A stretch of 64,000 bases of DNA from a virus (IMGVR_UViG_3300037468_000493:1-64000), one strand, 5' to 3'; counted from the first letter of the stretch, positions 2,365 through 62,939 are shown. Notes: generated from the sequence alone by a model not told the origin. Program-made: numbers and translations.

Positions 2365-2706
2365 ATGAACACTATCGCAATCGCCAACCACCTAAATGTA
2401 GCCGCCGACGCCATCGTTGAGGTTCAGGAATGGGCAAGGGTGTTGTGGGTTCGGGTTCGTGGCCTAGGTGCTCGGTTCGTTAGCAAAAAGGTAGGGCAAA
2501 AAATGGAAGCAACAGAAGCAACTGAAACAGTTTTAATGACAGCGGTTCGCATTGCCAAAAAGCAAAATGAGCTGATGGATTTGTGGAATCGGCAGGGAGA
2601 TGAAGCTGCATTTGGTCAATACCACGAACTCACTGATAGCCACGATAAAGCGTTTCGCCAACTCTCAAGAGAGGAACGCCGTGAATATATGCGGCTAGTT
2701 GACTAG
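2365..2706 (+). CDS. Hypothetical protein (cyanobacterial mobile-element type, EWARVLWV...RFVSKK)
   Basis: ORF following a promoter and a GAGG RBS. Confidence 0.65.
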   Translation: MNTIAIANHLNVAADAIVEVQEWARVLWVRVRGLGARFVSKKVGQKMEATEATETVLMTAVRIAKKQNELMDLWNRQGDEAAFGQYHELTDSHDKAFRQLSREERREYMRLVD

Positions 2707-31506: not shown

Positions 31507-31593
31507 CGCTGGGAGAGGCGTTAGGGCAGTAAAAACCCCTCGGGGGAGGGGCGAGGGGTTGAGACTGGGTTAGTCACCTCCCCATGGTTTGGT

Positions 31594-31707
31594 TTAGCAC
31601 AAAGCCTTGAGCATTTCTTCTTTGAGCAGGTGCTTACCCTTGCCGTGGGCATTTCGCCAGGCGATACCCCTTATGGAGCATTCGCGGCGCAACTCTGCAT
31701 TGCTCAT
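31594..31707 (-). CDS. 37-aa HeH/SAP-like mini-protein (MSNAELRRECSIRGIAWRNAHGKGKHLLKEEMLKALC)
   Basis: Translated by hand; near-identical to the C-terminus of 61201-61620. Confidence 0.6.
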   Translation of the reverse strand: MSNAELRRECSIRGIAWRNAHGKGKHLLKEEMLKALC

Positions 31708-31760
31708 CTTGGCCCAGTCAGGTGTGGGCACCTTCCCCCTCTGCTCCAACTGGCGGGGGT

Positions 31761-31973
31761 TTAGGCAAGTGCACAGGATATCGCCATGGCGCTTACTTGA
31801 TTGCTTTCAATAGCCGCCTTAACCCATGCGTAGGCATTCCGCAAATCTACTTCTTCGTTAACCAAATATCGTTGCGTGTCGGGGAATACGCCAGCATCAA
31901 TGACGGTTTTTAGCTGCTTAGCGTTGTAGATGCCGTGATACTTTAGTGCCTGCTTAGCTTCTGATCTAGTCAT
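31761..31973 (-). CDS. Small cassette-borne hypothetical protein
   Basis: Start reassigned to the ATG after the conserved leader with GAGG RBS. Confidence 0.65.
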   Translation of the reverse strand: MTRSEAKQALKYHGIYNAKQLKTVIDAGVFPDTQRYLVNEEVDLRNAYAWVKAAIESNQVSAMAISCALA

Positions 31974-32033
31974 CGGTGGTGCCTCTTTGCGGTGGTATGT
32001 AACCACTATAACCCCGCTTGACTGTTGCGTCAA
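31971..32033 (-). promoter_or_regulatory. Cassette promoter/leader A
   Basis: TTGACG-17-TATAGT, then CATACCACCGCAAAGAGGCACCACCGATG. Confidence 0.8.
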
Positions 32034-32054
32034 TAGGCAAAGTGAAAAGTGAAA

Positions 32055-32312
32055 TTAGTTTTCACCTTTCCCTTCCCTCTTGCGATCCCTGGCCTCATTG
32101 CCGGTTTTGCCCGTGCGCTTGCGACTGGCCCTAGATCGATCGGTGCTACTGGTGCCCCCATCGGTGCCGTGCCTGTAGCCGCCATGGGTAGCCCCTGACT
32201 TGGCTACCTGCTTGCGGCATTGGGGACACCGCCAGCGATCGCCGTTAGAGTGCATCGGTGCATGTCCACAATGGGGACAGGTTGGTGCGGTGGGGTTGGG
32301 TTTGTGTGTCAT
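32055..32312 (-). CDS. InsA-like zinc-ribbon protein with basic tail
   Basis: CPHCG...RWRCPQCRK. Confidence 0.7.
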   Translation of the reverse strand: MTHKPNPTAPTCPHCGHAPMHSNGDRWRCPQCRKQVAKSGATHGGYRHGTDGGTSSTDRSRASRKRTGKTGNEARDRKREGKGEN

Positions 32313-32334
32313 GGTTGAGTTTCCTATGAAAACA

Positions 32335-32600
32335 CCTCCGGCGGAAGGCTACGCAGAGCAGCAACCCCAGGGAATCGGACTAGGCGTTCACCACATTGAC
32401 CGCCCCTGCCGTTTGTAGCCGATAGTGGGAATCCCCTCTAGGGGGCACCGTCGCTAGGGCCATTGTTCACTCCCCGACAGGATCTTTAAGCGGTGTAGCT
32501 GGTTTCAGCGTTGGCCGATGTAGGATCCATGCTCTGCGTATCACCCCCCGCCGGAAGCTTTGACTACGGGTGTGCATCCCGGTGGGCTTTTAGCCGATAC
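32335..32600 (-). ncRNA. Candidate large structured RNA / 5' leader
   Basis: Own promoter; 14-bp and 11-bp long-range closing helices with three G-U pairs on the minus strand. Confidence 0.65.
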
Positions 32601-32603
32601 CTA

Positions 32604-32632
32604 ATATTAACCCCTTTTGAGTGTTGCGTCAA
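32604..32632 (-). promoter_or_regulatory. Cassette promoter B
   Basis: TTGACG-17-TAATAT; flanking sequence duplicated with promoter A. Confidence 0.8.
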
Positions 32633-32653
32633 TAGGCAAAGTGAAATTAGTTT

Positions 32654-33079
32654 TCACAGTGTGACTTGATCCCCCATCACCAGTAGATAAAGCTGCTGAA
32701 AACTGAGCCCCAATGCAGCCCGCCGCGATTCAAACCGTCGGCGGGTTTCTGCTATGGTCAGCCCGGTCTTTTCAGCTAATGGCGCAAAGGTACTCCCGTC
32801 AAATTCTTCGGCCCACAGGCAGAACAGTTGAGCCGGTGGAATTTGCCAGTCATGGGCCAGGGCGATTAGATCGTCGACGGCCCACGCGACTAGCCCCGAT
32901 TCTCGCTTTGAATATTGGTGTAGGGTCAGGGCTGTTTGTGCTCGGTACGCGGCATCGACCGTTGGGTAGCCCAGAGATCGCCGGACTTCCCTAAACGCTG
33001 CCACCATCCGCCGCCGATTATTTGCCAAATCTGCCTGCCAAAAGAGCGTAATCCCCGCCCCTATAGTAACCCAGCCCAT
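32654..33079 (-). CDS. XRE-like HTH protein
   Basis: FREVRRSLG...YSKRESG...DDLIALAHDWQIPPAQLF. Confidence 0.55.
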   Translation of the reverse strand: MGWVTIGAGITLFWQADLANNRRRMVAAFREVRRSLGYPTVDAAYRAQTALTLHQYSKRESGLVAWAVDDLIALAHDWQIPPAQLFCLWAEEFDGSTFAPLAEKTGLTIAETRRRFESRRAALGLSFQQLYLLVMGDQVTL

Positions 33080-60909: not shown

Positions 60910-61104
60910 ACTACCGCAATGCGCCAAACCATTTCTAGCAACAACAGCGCCACCATAACCGCCGCTGCATCGACCGAAAAATTCAGCATTCGCCTAGAAG
61001 ACAAGCTAGTAGGCGAGACTCACACCGTCACTATTTTTGACGCAGCAGAAGCCCGACGCCTAGCCGCCGCTCTATTGCTATGGGCCGACAACGCTGACGC
61101 CTAG
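60907..61104 (+). CDS. Small cassette-borne protein
   Basis: Start after the conserved leader. Confidence 0.65.
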   Translation: MTTAMRQTISSNNSATITAAASTEKFSIRLEDKLVGETHTVTIFDAAEARRLAAALLLWADNADA

Positions 61105-61110
61105 CATCAC

Positions 61111-61149
61111 GCCAGTTGGAGTAAAGGGGGTTCGATTCCCCCTCCTGGC
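61111..61149 (+). other. tRNA T-arm-like mini structure
   Basis: GCCAG...GGGGG-TTCGATT-CCCCC..CTGGC. Confidence 0.5.
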
Positions 61150-61200
61150 CTGAGCCCCACCCACTACACGGGGCCATTCACCACATTGAGGATTCACACC

Positions 61201-61712: not shown

Positions 61713-61922
61713 ATGACTACCTGCCCCCACTGCCACTACAGCCCCTGCCACCGCCACGACAAGACCAGGGCAGGCACTCAGCGGTGGATGTGCCCCCAAT
61801 GCCTCAAGGCCCACAGCGAGAGCGGCCTAAAGGGGCGGCCTAGCATTGGCGATCGCCCCATGACCGACGCTGAGCGAATGCGGCGGAGCAGGAAGAAAAA
61901 GAGAAGCACGGGACTACCGTAG
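61713..61922 (+). CDS. InsA-like zinc-ribbon protein with basic tail
   Basis: CPHC...KTRAGTQRWMCPQC...GRP...MTDAERMRRSRKKK. Confidence 0.7.
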   Translation: MTTCPHCHYSPCHRHDKTRAGTQRWMCPQCLKAHSESGLKGRPSIGDRPMTDAERMRRSRKKKRSTGLP

Positions 61923-62939
61923 CGACTCCAGCACCCGCAGCGACTCCAGCACCCGCTGCATCATCAGGCATGGGATACCGTTGCCGATGATCTTGGTGGT
62001 TGCCCCCTGATACCAATCGGGCATGGTTTGGATGCGGCCAAAGGCTTGGGTATTGAATGCCACTACCCTGCCGCCCACCTGCGCCCGTATGCTGCGCTTA
62101 GCCTGAGTCGCTGAAACAGTAAACATGGGTTCGGCATCGGCTCGGATGGTCAAACCCCGCTTGCCCTTTTCGTCCGGAGCGCCGTTGTACTGATCATCAA
62201 TGACGAAGGCTTTAATCAAATTGCCGCCCTGATTAGTCGTCAGGGTGAACGATGGTCTGTCCCATGGCACAACCGGCATGGTTCGTTGGTCGGTGGGGTG
62301 AACCATGAAGGACTTGTTTAGCTGTGCGGGCAGCCGCTCCAACTGCCATAGTGCAAACTGGCTATCCGGCAACCCAGGGATCAAATCCTCAATGGCCTCA
62401 TACCACCCCCGCCACTTCACCGGCTGAGGTAATGGCCCAACGAACCCGCCTTTGACCGCCCGCAGGATTAACCGGCGGCGGGTCTGGGGTACTCCAAAAT
62501 CTGCTGAATTGAGCACATCCACATTGACCCAATACCCAGCCCCCCAGAGATGATCCACAATGCGCTGGAACCCTGGGGCCTTGCGGTAGCCCTCCACGTT
62601 CTCCAGGGTGACGGTGCTGGGCTTTAGCACCCGTAGCGCCTCAATACAGGCACTGGCTAACCCATCGTTGTCATTGCCCACCTTGCCGCGGGTCTTGGCC
62701 ACGCTGAAATCTTGGCAGGGCGGCGACATGTGCAAATGGTCGGGGCTCTCCACACTGGCCCAGTCAAACCCGATCACCGAGGCTGTATGTACCGTGTCCC
62801 GGTGGGGGAGGTTGGCATTTGCAACGGAAGCAATATCCGGCTCTAGCTCAACACCCCAAAGCAACTCATACCCCGACTGCATGGCCCCGATGTCGGCCAG
62901 CCCCCCGCCGGTGAATAACGAAGCGAATGTTTTTGGCAT
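61914..62939 (-). CDS. C5 cytosine DNA methyltransferase
   Basis: SLFTGGG, SPPCQDFS, LENV, QTRRR, IIGNG. Confidence 0.93.
   Translation of the reverse strand: MPKTFASLFTGGGLADIGAMQSGYELLWGVELEPDIASVANANLPHRDTVHTASVIGFDWASVESPDHLHMSPPCQDFSVAKTRGKVGNDNDGLASACIEALRVLKPSTVTLENVEGYRKAPGFQRIVDHLWGAGYWVNVDVLNSADFGVPQTRRRLILRAVKGGFVGPLPQPVKWRGWYEAIEDLIPGLPDSQFALWQLERLPAQLNKSFMVHPTDQRTMPVVPWDRPSFTLTTNQGGNLIKAFVIDDQYNGAPDEKGKRGLTIRADAEPMFTVSATQAKRSIRAQVGGRVVAFNTQAFGRIQTMPDWYQGATTKIIGNGIPCLMMQRVLESLRVLESLR

What the first reader, a model, noticed from the sequence alone, without database searches (positions are those of the whole stretch)
32335..32632. ~270-nt structured RNA with its own promoter, upstream of a zinc-ribbon gene
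Seen: promoter B (TTGACG-17-TAATAT, minus strand) is followed by ~290 nt with no convincing ORF. On the minus strand CTTCCGGCGGGGGG pairs with CCTTCCGCCGGAGG (14 bp, three G-U pairs that would be A-C mismatches on the plus strand), and TACGCAGAGCA pairs perfectly with TGCTCTGCGTA. These helices enclose ~170 nt containing further stems (GGATC/GATCC, GCTGaaacCAGC, CCCCtagaGGGG), and ATCGGC(T/C)A recurs three times. Inference: an unrecognised phage ncRNA, riboregulator or ribozyme, and a second candidate ligand for the IV-B complex.
Basis: partly seen in the sequence, partly recalled or inferred. Interest (0 to 1): 0.75.

Follow-up and report, generated by a model that had tools for sequence, protein, structure and literature searches.

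The report
New structured RNA gene in cyanophages
This stretch is a self-contained gene (own promoter, about 270 nt) for a large folded non-coding RNA of a family not in Rfam; it occurs in several freshwater phage contigs, its fold is kept by compensating mutations, its function is unknown, and nothing links it to the phage's type IV-B CRISPR complex.

Summary
On the minus strand, TTGACG-17-TAATAT (32632-32604) precedes a ~270-nt non-coding stretch (32600 to ~32330). It folds into two small 5' hairpins, a ~12-nt linker, a ~30-bp rod and a multi-helix core.

I found four more copies at 93, 90, 78 and 74% identity: L005, L011, L017 and L018. A DNA run showed a fifth variant. Every fetched copy has its own sigma-70-like promoter, and homology starts at the -10 box and ends at the rod.

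- **Fold:** 96% of pair cells are kept. 15 pairs show compensatory changes, against 6.4 in shuffles (0 of 500 reach 15). Substitutions spare a structure predicted from the window sequence alone (P<5e-5 for three copies). This holds only on the minus strand.
- **Known families:** no Rfam family matches. There is no MITE-like copy family, and the genome has no RT or Ro gene.
- **Zinc-ribbon gene:** this neighbour is not conserved. In three of five fetched contexts the next gene is a convergent, unrelated gene.
- **Type IV-B:** a sister phage keeps the operon without the RNA, and another phage has the RNA with no Csf2 found in its 79%-complete record.

Best reading: an autonomous, cassette-borne, probably trans-acting phage ncRNA. 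Expression is untested.

The parts
32643..32654 (-). Spacer box AAAACTAATTTC, directly after the stop codon of the 141-aa gene. It is part of the repeated terminator/spacer/promoter unit that bounds the cassettes.
   Evidence: It occurs only twice in the genome, at 32654-32643 and 32062-32051. The 19-mer CTTTGCCTATTGACGCAAC also occurs twice. The same box follows the terminators in L011.
32604..32632 (-). Sigma-70-type promoter TTGACG-17-TAATAT of the RNA
   Evidence: All other copies have equivalent promoters: L005 TTGACG-17-TAATAT, L011 TTGACA-18-TAATAT, L017 and L018 TTGACA-18-TATATT. The -35 and spacer sequences are not homologous between lineages, and homology begins at the -10 box.
32326..32600 (-). 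The structured RNA as modelled. The start site is inferred at about 32600-32597, the rod ends at 32335, and the U-tract runs to 32326.
   Evidence: The covariance models score it at 341 bits (R1) and 318 bits (R2). Homologues are L005:2429-2702, L011:2249-1975, L017:3595-3321 and L018:3620-3321.
32584..32595 (-). Hairpin H1: a 4-bp stem with a GAAA or AAA(A) loop
   Evidence: There are four different stem sequences: GGCU/AGCC, GGCU/GGCC, GGGG/CCCC and GGCC/GGCC. Two of its pairs show compensatory changes. The variant in run X5 is also compensatory.
32566..32582 (-). Hairpin H2: a GGGG/CCCC stem with a 7-nt loop
   Evidence: One pair changes from C-G to G-C.
32554..32565 (-). Linker AGUCAAAGCUUC, invariant in all five copies. 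Its last four bases pair only in the window and L011.
   Evidence: Alignment A10.
32521..32557 (-). 5' strand of the closing rod
   Evidence: The helix has 29 pairs common to all five copies, and 33-34 in the window. Six of its pairs show compensatory changes and 94% of pair cells are paired.
32370..32520 (-). Multi-helix core with long invariant junction and loop stretches (ACACCGCUUAAAGAUC, CUACAAAC, GGGGCGG, CAAUGUGGUG)
   Evidence: L018 carries an insertion of about 43 nt in one peripheral hairpin while the rest of the core is kept.
32335..32369 (-). 3' strand of the closing rod
   Evidence: Two G-U pairs in the window and L005 are G-C in L011, L017 and L018.
32326..32334 (-). U-tract UGUUUUCAU after the rod (terminator-like)
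   Evidence: A U-tract is also present in L005 (UUGCUUUUUGCU). It is absent in L011, L017 and L018.
32055..32312 (-). 85-aa zinc-ribbon protein with an Arg/Lys-rich tail. It is downstream of the RNA here but is not a conserved partner.
   Evidence: Only sub-threshold zinc-ribbon Pfam hits. Homologues appear. It is homologous to the second zinc-ribbon gene at 61713-61922.
31510..32657 (-). 1148-bp accessory cassette array: promoter-RNA-zinc-ribbon gene, then promoter-90-aa gene-51-aa gene-terminator. The whole array is absent from the sister phage.
   Evidence: The flanks join precisely in L003, at 92-93% nucleotide identity on both sides.
32005..32033 (-). Second cassette promoter TTGACG-17-TATAGT
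31535..31552 (-). Intrinsic terminator GCCCCTCCCCCGAGGGG + T-run, closing the array
   Evidence: The same terminator sequence occurs twice in L011.

Best explanation
Window 32600 to ~32330 (minus strand) is a gene for a ~265-270-nt structured non-coding RNA of a family not yet described.

**Shown**
- Each of the five fetched copies sits directly behind its own strong sigma-70-type promoter. Sequence homology starts at the -10 box and stops at the end of the closing rod.
- The fold is two 5' hairpins, an invariant linker, a ~30-bp rod and a conserved multi-helix core. It is maintained by compensatory and wobble-compatible substitutions, on the minus strand only.
- The promoter+RNA unit occurs in at least four different gene contexts, in accessory or early regions of freshwater phages that are probably cyanophages. 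In this phage lineage it lies in a promoter/terminator-bounded cassette array that a 92-93% identical sister phage lacks.

**Inferred**
- Host RNA polymerase transcribes it early.
- The very stable rod defines or protects the 3' end. In the window and L005, where a U-tract follows, it would act as an intrinsic terminator or attenuator. Elsewhere it could serve as a stop for 3' trimming or as an RNase III-type processing stalk.
- The invariant junctions and loops of the core act in trans as a binding surface for a protein (an RNP or a decoy) during host take-over or counter-defence.
- In this window, read-through would also make the RNA the 5' leader of the zinc-ribbon gene. That is a local consequence of the cassette order and not the RNA's conserved role.
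- It is not a dedicated ligand of the type IV-B complex.
For: **Homologues**
- L005 is 93% identical.
- L011 is 90% identical, and its flanks are otherwise unrelated to the window.
- L017 is 78% and L018 74% identical.
- A further variant sits in a 9-kb DNA contig of run X5.
- The C-terminal tails of proteins P0005-P0009 and P0013 are antisense translations of the RNA. More copies therefore exist in metagenomes.

**Promoters:**

**Covariation**
- On the five-sequence alignment, 96.3% of pair cells are paired.
- 15 pairs show compensatory changes against 6.4 in shuffles. 0 of 500 shuffles reach the observed number, and slid controls give 4 or fewer (one search agrees).
- I also tested a structure predicted from the window sequence alone. 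L011's 25 substitutions break 3 pairs (null mean 11.3). L017's 56 break 11 (null 23.1). L018's 62 break 8 (null 24.7). All three give P<5e-5. L005 gives P=0.03.
- The plus-strand fold is not spared (P=0.49 and 0.13).
- Independent single-sequence folds of L011, L017 and L018 give the same architecture.

**Autonomy of the unit**
- In L005/X5, L017 and L018 the next gene is a convergent, conserved 107-118-aa gene.
- No zinc-ribbon gene of either type was found in G003 or G004.
- The cassette array is an indel relative to L003.
- There is one copy per genome.

**Not coding:**

**No known family:**

**Type IV-B link rejected:**
Against: - There is no expression evidence. The only RNA-library contig that matched covers 31900-32071 and not the RNA.
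- There are only five full sequences, from about three lineages. The five-sequence alignment was fitted to the model, which favours the structure.
- The U-tract after the rod is present in only 2 of 5 copies, so termination at the rod is not general.
- In the window and L011 the zinc-ribbon gene has no promoter of its own and starts 23-50 nt after the rod. There the RNA is physically a leader, so a cis role cannot be excluded.
- In most other contexts the RNA's 3' end overlaps the 3' end of a convergent conserved gene. That could instead point to a cis-antisense role.
- No partner protein or trans target was identified. The longest complementarities within the phage genome are 13-mers at chance level.
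Confidence: 0.55

Rival explanations
1. The RNA is a cis-acting 5' leader or attenuator of the downstream zinc-ribbon/Arg-rich gene. The layout resembles lambda pL-nutL-structured leader-N: small hairpins just after the start site, a large stable structure, then the ribosome-binding site of a small basic protein that might bind its own leader.
For: - In the window and L011 the RNA directly abuts two different zinc-ribbon paralogues that have no promoter of their own.
- The U-tract and a small hairpin covering the AGGAA Shine-Dalgarno sequence follow the rod in the window.
- The proteins have Arg-rich tails.
- Lambda nutL lies about 200 nt upstream of N, with a highly structured intervening leader (PMC5725501, citing PMC275398 and PMC126142).
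Against: - In three of five fetched contexts no gene lies downstream on the same strand.
- Zinc-ribbon genes occur without this RNA in L004, L006, L007 and in the window itself at 61713-61922.
- Homology ends exactly at the rod, before each ribosome-binding site.
- A ~30-bp rod is too stable to be a switching helix.
Confidence: 0.15
2. The RNA is a base-pairing riboregulator, in the manner of the immunity RNAs P4 CI and P1 C4, or a cis-antisense RNA. It would act through its invariant single-stranded linker or loops, or through overlap with the 3' end of the convergent GRALCHRAIELRWY-protein mRNA.
For: - The 12-nt linker AGUCAAAGCUUC is invariant and is unpaired in 3 of 5 copies.
- The RNA is convergent with, and overlaps, that gene in L005, X5, L017, L018 and the contigs behind P0005-P0009 and P0013.
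- In L017 and L018 it lies in the integrase/sigma-factor early region.
Against: - The window phage and L011's contig lack that gene altogether.
- No complementarity above chance was found in the phage genome.
- A size of 270 nt with ten helices is far more structure than known antisense regulators need.
Confidence: 0.12
3. The RNA is a ribozyme, self-cleaving or otherwise catalytic.
For: The size, the multi-helix junctions and the long invariant unpaired stretches are typical of complex-folded RNAs.
Against: No ribozyme family matches at any threshold. No recognisable catalytic core motif was seen. No experimental test was possible.
Confidence: 0.08
4. The feature works at the DNA level: a MITE or other inverted-repeat element, or a pair of operator sites for the InsA-like zinc-ribbon protein.
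For: In L011 the 14-bp and 11-bp arms are perfect inverted repeats. The type-2 zinc ribbon resembles InsA or transposase zinc ribbons weakly.
Against: - There is a single copy per genome.
- The invariant 23-mer of the 5' arm has no match in 185,579 species genomes.
- Nothing matched in the phage or plasmid collections.
- There is no target-site duplication.
- The conserved block extends 43 nt beyond the repeat, up to the -10 box.
- Covariation occurs in internal helices and is strand-specific.
Confidence: 0.03
5. The RNA is a dedicated ligand or guide-like RNA of the phage's array-less type IV-B Csf complex.
Against: - The two are 26 kb apart.
- G001 has Csf2 at 94% identity but no RNA.
- G004 has the RNA, and no Csf2 was found in its 79%-complete record.
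Confidence: 0.03

Closest known systems
PeSL (promoter-early stem-loop) cassettes of T4-like phages (Arbiol et al. 2010, PMC2839356; Comeau et al. 2014, PMC4122927)
   Same: Short composite terminator+promoter repeats bound small accessory units. Closely related phages differ by whole-cassette indels and swaps at these repeats. Here the repeat is GCCCCTCCCCCGAGGGG-T-run + AAAACTAATTTC + TTGAC(A/G)..TATAGT.
   Different: This is a different phage type, a siphovirus-like and probably cyanobacterial phage. The repeats are not sequence-related to T4 PeSLs. This cassette carries a large structured RNA and not an ORF. The RNA unit brings its own -10 box and has no standard terminator.
Large structured ncRNAs of unknown function that occur in phages and prophages (GOLLD, ROOL; Rfam families; from my own knowledge)
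   Same: They are big, multi-helix, covariation-supported RNAs carried by phages, with no known function and no obligatory neighbouring gene.
   Different: There is no sequence or structure match to any Rfam model. At about 270 nt it is much smaller than GOLLD or ROOL. It has its own consensus promoter and a rod that closes the whole molecule.
Lambda N leader (pL-nutL-structured, RNase III-sensitive leader-N; PMC5725501, citing PMC275398 and PMC126142)
   Same: In the window and L011 the order is promoter, small hairpins, a large stable structure, then a small Arg-rich protein gene.
   Different: No boxA/boxB similarity was tested or seen. The association with the protein gene is not conserved. 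The structure is about three times larger.
Leader-derived phage immunity RNAs (P4 CI, P1/P7 C4; from my own knowledge)
   Same: They are RNAs made from the start of an early transcript in a temperate phage's regulatory region.
   Different: Those RNAs are about 70-80 nt and act by short base pairing with repeated targets in the same operon. No such targets were found here.
Type IV-B Csf ribonucleoprotein
   Same: A complex of that type is encoded in the same phage genome.
   Different: Presence and absence of the RNA and of Csf2 do not track each other.

Membership tests
Any Rfam 15 family (riboswitches, ribozymes, RNase P, tmRNA, SRP, 6S, Y RNA, GOLLD/ROOL and others) | Covariance-model score at or above the gathering threshold, or at least a suggestive E-value | tested here: not met
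   The whole window at gathering thresholds gave 0 hits. Permissive E<=10 scans of 300-900-nt stretches of the window and L011 gave only noise, or nothing.
tRNA / tmRNA | Detection by ARAGORN | tested here: not met
   0 genes in the window.
MITE / inverted-repeat mobile element | Many dispersed copies, terminal inverted repeats at the ends of the conserved unit, and a target-site duplication | tested here: not met
   There is one copy per genome and 0 matches of the invariant 23-mer in genome contigs. The conserved unit extends 43 nt beyond the repeat, and the flanks (..CAAAG and TGTTT..) are not duplicated.
Retron msr-msd ncRNA | A reverse transcriptase gene next to an ncRNA closed by inverted repeats | tested here: not met
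   No RVT_1 match anywhere in the 79.7-kb genome. The neighbours are a zinc-ribbon gene or a helical-hairpin protein gene.
Y RNA / Ro RNP | A TROVE (Ro/Rsr) protein encoded with an RNA closed by its 5' and 3' ends | tested here: not met
   No TROVE match in the genome and no YrlA match in Rfam.
Riboswitch / cis-regulatory leader | Consistently in the 5' UTR of the same class of gene, with an expression platform | tested here: not met
   The downstream gene is zinc-ribbon type 1 (window), type 2 (L011), or a convergent unrelated gene (L005, L017, L018). A U-tract is present in 2 of 5 copies.
Stand-alone ncRNA gene | Its own promoter in every copy, and conservation limited to the transcribed unit | tested here: met
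   Promoter matches of 9-11 out of 12 directly upstream in all five copies. Homology starts at the -10 box and ends at the rod.
Stand-alone ncRNA gene | A discrete transcript is detected | tested here: inconclusive
   The one RNA-library run that matched holds only 31900-32071 as a contig. No raw-read RNA data were available.
Conserved structured RNA | Base pairs maintained by compensatory substitutions beyond controls, on one strand | tested here: met
   (minus strand) against (plus strand).
PeSL-like shuffled cassette | Repeated terminator/promoter units at the boundaries of indels between close relatives | tested here: met
   L017 and L018 use a different terminator and promoter sequence but the same layout.
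Type IV-B Csf-associated RNA | Co-occurrence with csf genes | tested here: not met
   G001 has Csf2 but no RNA. G004 has the RNA, and no Csf2 was found in its incomplete record.

The most novel reading that the evidence does not exclude
This is the first representative of a new class of large, complex-folded phage RNAs with a biochemical activity of its own. It would be either a ribozyme or the RNA core of an RNP that disarms a host factor such as a defence nuclease, RNA polymerase or a sigma factor. Freshwater cyanophages would trade it as a plug-in promoter+RNA cassette.
Probability: 0.2. Interest if true: 0.85.

Novelty: new variant of a known kind. Interest (0 to 1): 0.58.

Why it matters
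Large, intricately folded bacterial and phage RNAs are rare, and they have repeatedly turned out to be ribozymes or RNP cores. This candidate is unusually well defined for one found in a single window.
- It has exact boundaries, its own promoter in every copy, and covariation in most helices.
- It moves as a cassette between phage genomes, which argues that it confers a selectable function on its own.
- It shows that promoter/terminator-bounded accessory cassettes in cyanophages can carry RNA genes as well as small ORFs.
- It removes one speculative candidate ligand for the enigmatic type IV-B complex.

Tried and rejected
**Searches that found nothing**
- blastn of the locus against 50,697 GenBank phages and 72,556 plasmids gave no match.
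- Exact-pattern scans of IMG/VR with four conserved pieces returned only L011.
- The genome-contig scan with the invariant 5'-arm 23-mer gave 0 hits.
- The genome-contig scan with the type-2 zinc ribbon returned only unrelated transposase-like zinc ribbons.
- Covariance models R1 and R2, with filters off, found nothing in L004, L006-L009, L013 or L015, nor in the whole records G001 and G002.

**Candidates examined and dropped**
- L007's 220-nt untranslated gap before its zinc-ribbon gene looked superficially similar (GAACCAATGGCCC). It is not a homologue and folds only weakly (z = -2.0).
- L004's 115-nt leader (z = -1.0) and L005's 300-nt insert (z = 0.2) are not structured.
- An antisense-target search within the phage genome found only 13-mers at chance level.
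- No RT, TROVE or RNase III gene was found in the genome.

**Expression**
- The only RNA-library run that matched (X16) held a contig at 31900-32071. A part without cover proves nothing, so expression is simply untested.

I could therefore not fetch the contigs behind P0001-P0004 or behind P0006-P0009 and P0013, which must contain further RNA variants.
- The genome search cannot draw relatives for a virus record, so cyanobacterial genomes could not be scanned with the model.

**Side branches**
- The AlphaFold model of the convergent 107-aa protein is only a two-helix hairpin with a disordered tail (pLDDT 67). That is too simple for a meaningful fold search, so none was run.
- The protein atlas gave only generic zinc-ribbon look-alikes for the 85-aa protein.

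Full report
**1. What is in the window**

The window is part of a 79.7-kb IMG/VR virus record with direct terminal repeats. The record carries a tape-measure gene and tail genes. GCGATCGC (HIP1) occurs 39 times. From established knowledge, that enrichment points to a cyanobacterial host.

On the minus strand the 141-aa gene ends at 32654. After it come, in order:
- the box AAAACTAATTTC;
- the promoter TTGACG-17-TAATAT at 32632-32604;
- about 290 nt with no credible ORF;
- the ATG of an 85-aa zinc-ribbon gene at 32312.

The minus-strand fold has MFE -117.7 kcal/mol and z = -3.05. The plus strand gives z = -1.56.

**2. It sits in a shuffled cassette array**

L003 is a sister phage, 92-93% identical on both sides. 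It lacks window 32657-31510 entirely, and the flanks join precisely.

The missing 1148 bp holds two promoter-led units and ends in the terminator GCCCCTCCCCCGAGGGG + T-run. The same terminator + AAAACTAATTTC + promoter unit recurs in L011. Related metagenome contigs carry different cassette contents between the same landmarks.

This is the layout described for PeSL cassettes in T4-like phages (PMC2839356, PMC4122927).

**3. Homologues of the RNA**

| Copy | Location | Identity to window | Found by |
|---|---|---|---|
| L005 | 2429-2702 (+) | 93% | zinc-ribbon homologues |
| L011 | 2249-1975 (-) | 90% | a 29-mer of the 5' arm in IMG/VR |
| L017 | 3595-3321 (-) | 78% | the convergent gene |
| L018 | 3620-3321 (-) | 74% | the convergent gene |

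L011's flanks are otherwise unrelated to the window.

The L017 and L018 copies came from a side observation. The ORF antisense to L005's spacer is a real conserved gene encoding a 107-118-aa protein with the motif GRALCHRAIELRWY. Using it as bait gave L017 and L018. L018 has an insertion of about 43 nt in one peripheral hairpin.

A DNA run of a named organism (X5) holds the L005-type layout in a 9-kb contig with yet another RNA variant.

The C-terminal tails of P0005-P0009 and P0013 are literal antisense translations of the RNA's 3' part.

**4. Boundaries**

In every copy a promoter matching 9-11 of 12 consensus positions lies directly upstream. Between lineages the -35 and spacer sequences are unrelated. 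Homology begins at the -10 box and ends at the last pair of the rod. The conserved unit therefore coincides with the predicted transcript.

**5. Structure and covariation**

The consensus has ten helices:
- H1, a 4-bp hairpin with four different stem sequences;
- H2, a second small hairpin;
- an invariant linker, AGUCAAAGCUUC;
- a rod of about 30 bp;
- a core with long invariant junction stretches.

On the five-sequence model alignment, 96.3% of pair cells form standard pairs. Fifteen pairs show compensatory changes, against 6.4 +/- 1.8 in shuffles. None of 500 shuffles reaches 15. Sliding the 3' partners gives 4 or fewer (one search agrees).

That alignment was fitted to the model, so I added a test that uses no information from the homologues. 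I took the MFE structure of the window sequence alone. For each homologue I counted how many of its pairs the observed substitutions break. I compared that with the same substitutions placed at random.

| Copy | Substitutions | Pairs broken | Null mean | P |
|---|---|---|---|---|
| L005 | 19 | 4 | 7.7 | 0.03 |
| L011 | 25 | 3 | 11.3 | <5e-5 |
| L017 | 56 | 11 | 23.1 | <5e-5 |
| L018 | 62 | 8 | 24.7 | <5e-5 |

The same test on the plus-strand fold shows no sparing (P = 0.49 and 0.13).

Single-sequence folds of L011, L017 and L018 recover the same architecture, with z = -6.6, -2.5 and -4.0.

The small ORFs inside the RNA change mostly non-synonymously.

**6. What it is not**

- **Known RNA family:** no Rfam family matches at any threshold, and ARAGORN finds no tRNA or tmRNA.
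- **MITE:** there is one copy per genome, no hit to the invariant arm in 185,579 species genomes, no target-site duplication, and the conserved unit is larger than the repeat.
- **Retron or Ro RNP:** the genome has no RT and no Ro protein.
- **Conventional riboswitch or leader:** the downstream neighbour differs between copies.
  - In the window it is zinc-ribbon type 1.
  - In L011 it is zinc-ribbon type 2. The orthologue of that gene in the window, at 61713-61922, has no such RNA upstream.
  - In L005/X5, L017 and L018 it is the convergent gene. In L017 and L018 that gene follows a phage sigma-70-like factor.
- **Conserved partners:** G003 and G004 have no detectable zinc-ribbon gene of either type. 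The window phage has no copy of the convergent gene.
- **Type IV-B ligand:** G001 has Csf2 at 94% identity but no RNA, and G004 has the RNA with no Csf2 found.

**7. How it most likely works**

*Shown:* it is an autonomous promoter+RNA unit, conserved as a fold, that moves between phage contexts.

*Inferred:*
- Host RNA polymerase transcribes it early.
- The rod fixes the 3' end. A U-tract follows the rod in the window and L005 but not in L011, L017 or L018. Termination at the rod is therefore context-dependent, and 3' trimming or RNase III-type processing is the alternative.
- The invariant unpaired stretches of the core act in trans as a binding surface for a protein.
- In this window, read-through would place the RNA in front of the zinc-ribbon gene. 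That resembles the lambda nutL-structured leader-N arrangement (PMC5725501). I keep it as the main rival, at 0.15.
- A base-pairing or cis-antisense role (0.12) and catalysis (0.08) also remain possible.

**8. Novelty and score**

This is a new RNA family in a known general category, phage-borne structured ncRNAs of unknown function, carried by a PeSL-like cassette system in probable cyanophages. The evidence for a real, selected fold is strong for so few sequences. Function and expression are untested. Interest is 0.58.

Noticed in passing
window 61104-61160 (+): A tRNA-like minihelix lies between two genes of the second cassette array: GCCAG ... GGGGG-UUCGAUU-CCCCC ... CUGGC, with the T-arm-like hairpin at 61126-61142. 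ARAGORN and Rfam report nothing there.
   Followed up: no
window 61713-61922 (+) and 61914-62939 (-): A second zinc-ribbon/Arg-rich paralogue (69 aa, weakly InsA-like) has a 3' end that overlaps a convergent C5 cytosine DNA methylase. The same gene pair occurs in L011, where the RNA precedes the zinc-ribbon gene.
   Followed up: partly
L017:2414-3357 (+); also L018: These phages encode a sigma-70-like factor (Pfam Sigma70_r2, 1.3e-17). It is followed directly by a conserved 107-118-aa protein with the motif GRALCHRAIELRWY, which has no Pfam family and models as a helical hairpin with a disordered tail. That protein may be a sigma partner, and its 3' end overlaps the RNA's 3' end.
   Followed up: partly
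L003:6662-7844, against window 30264-30114: The sister phage carries about 1.2 kb where the window has about 150 bp. This is another accessory indel next to the tail genes.
   Followed up: no
L004:4844-4995: In a 74.5-kb provirus record the zinc-ribbon homologue has a similar promoter (TTGACGTAACA...). Its ~115-nt leader ends in a strong terminator-like hairpin just before the gene, so expression there seems to need read-through.
   Followed up: partly
DNA run X5 laid on window 31900-32800: A run labelled with a named organism, not a metagenome, holds the L005-type layout in a 9-kb contig at depth about 30. This may be a host culture or a lysogen.
   Followed up: no
whole genome G000: HIP1 (GCGATCGC) occurs 39 times in 79.7 kb, consistent with a cyanobacterial host.
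   Followed up: partly
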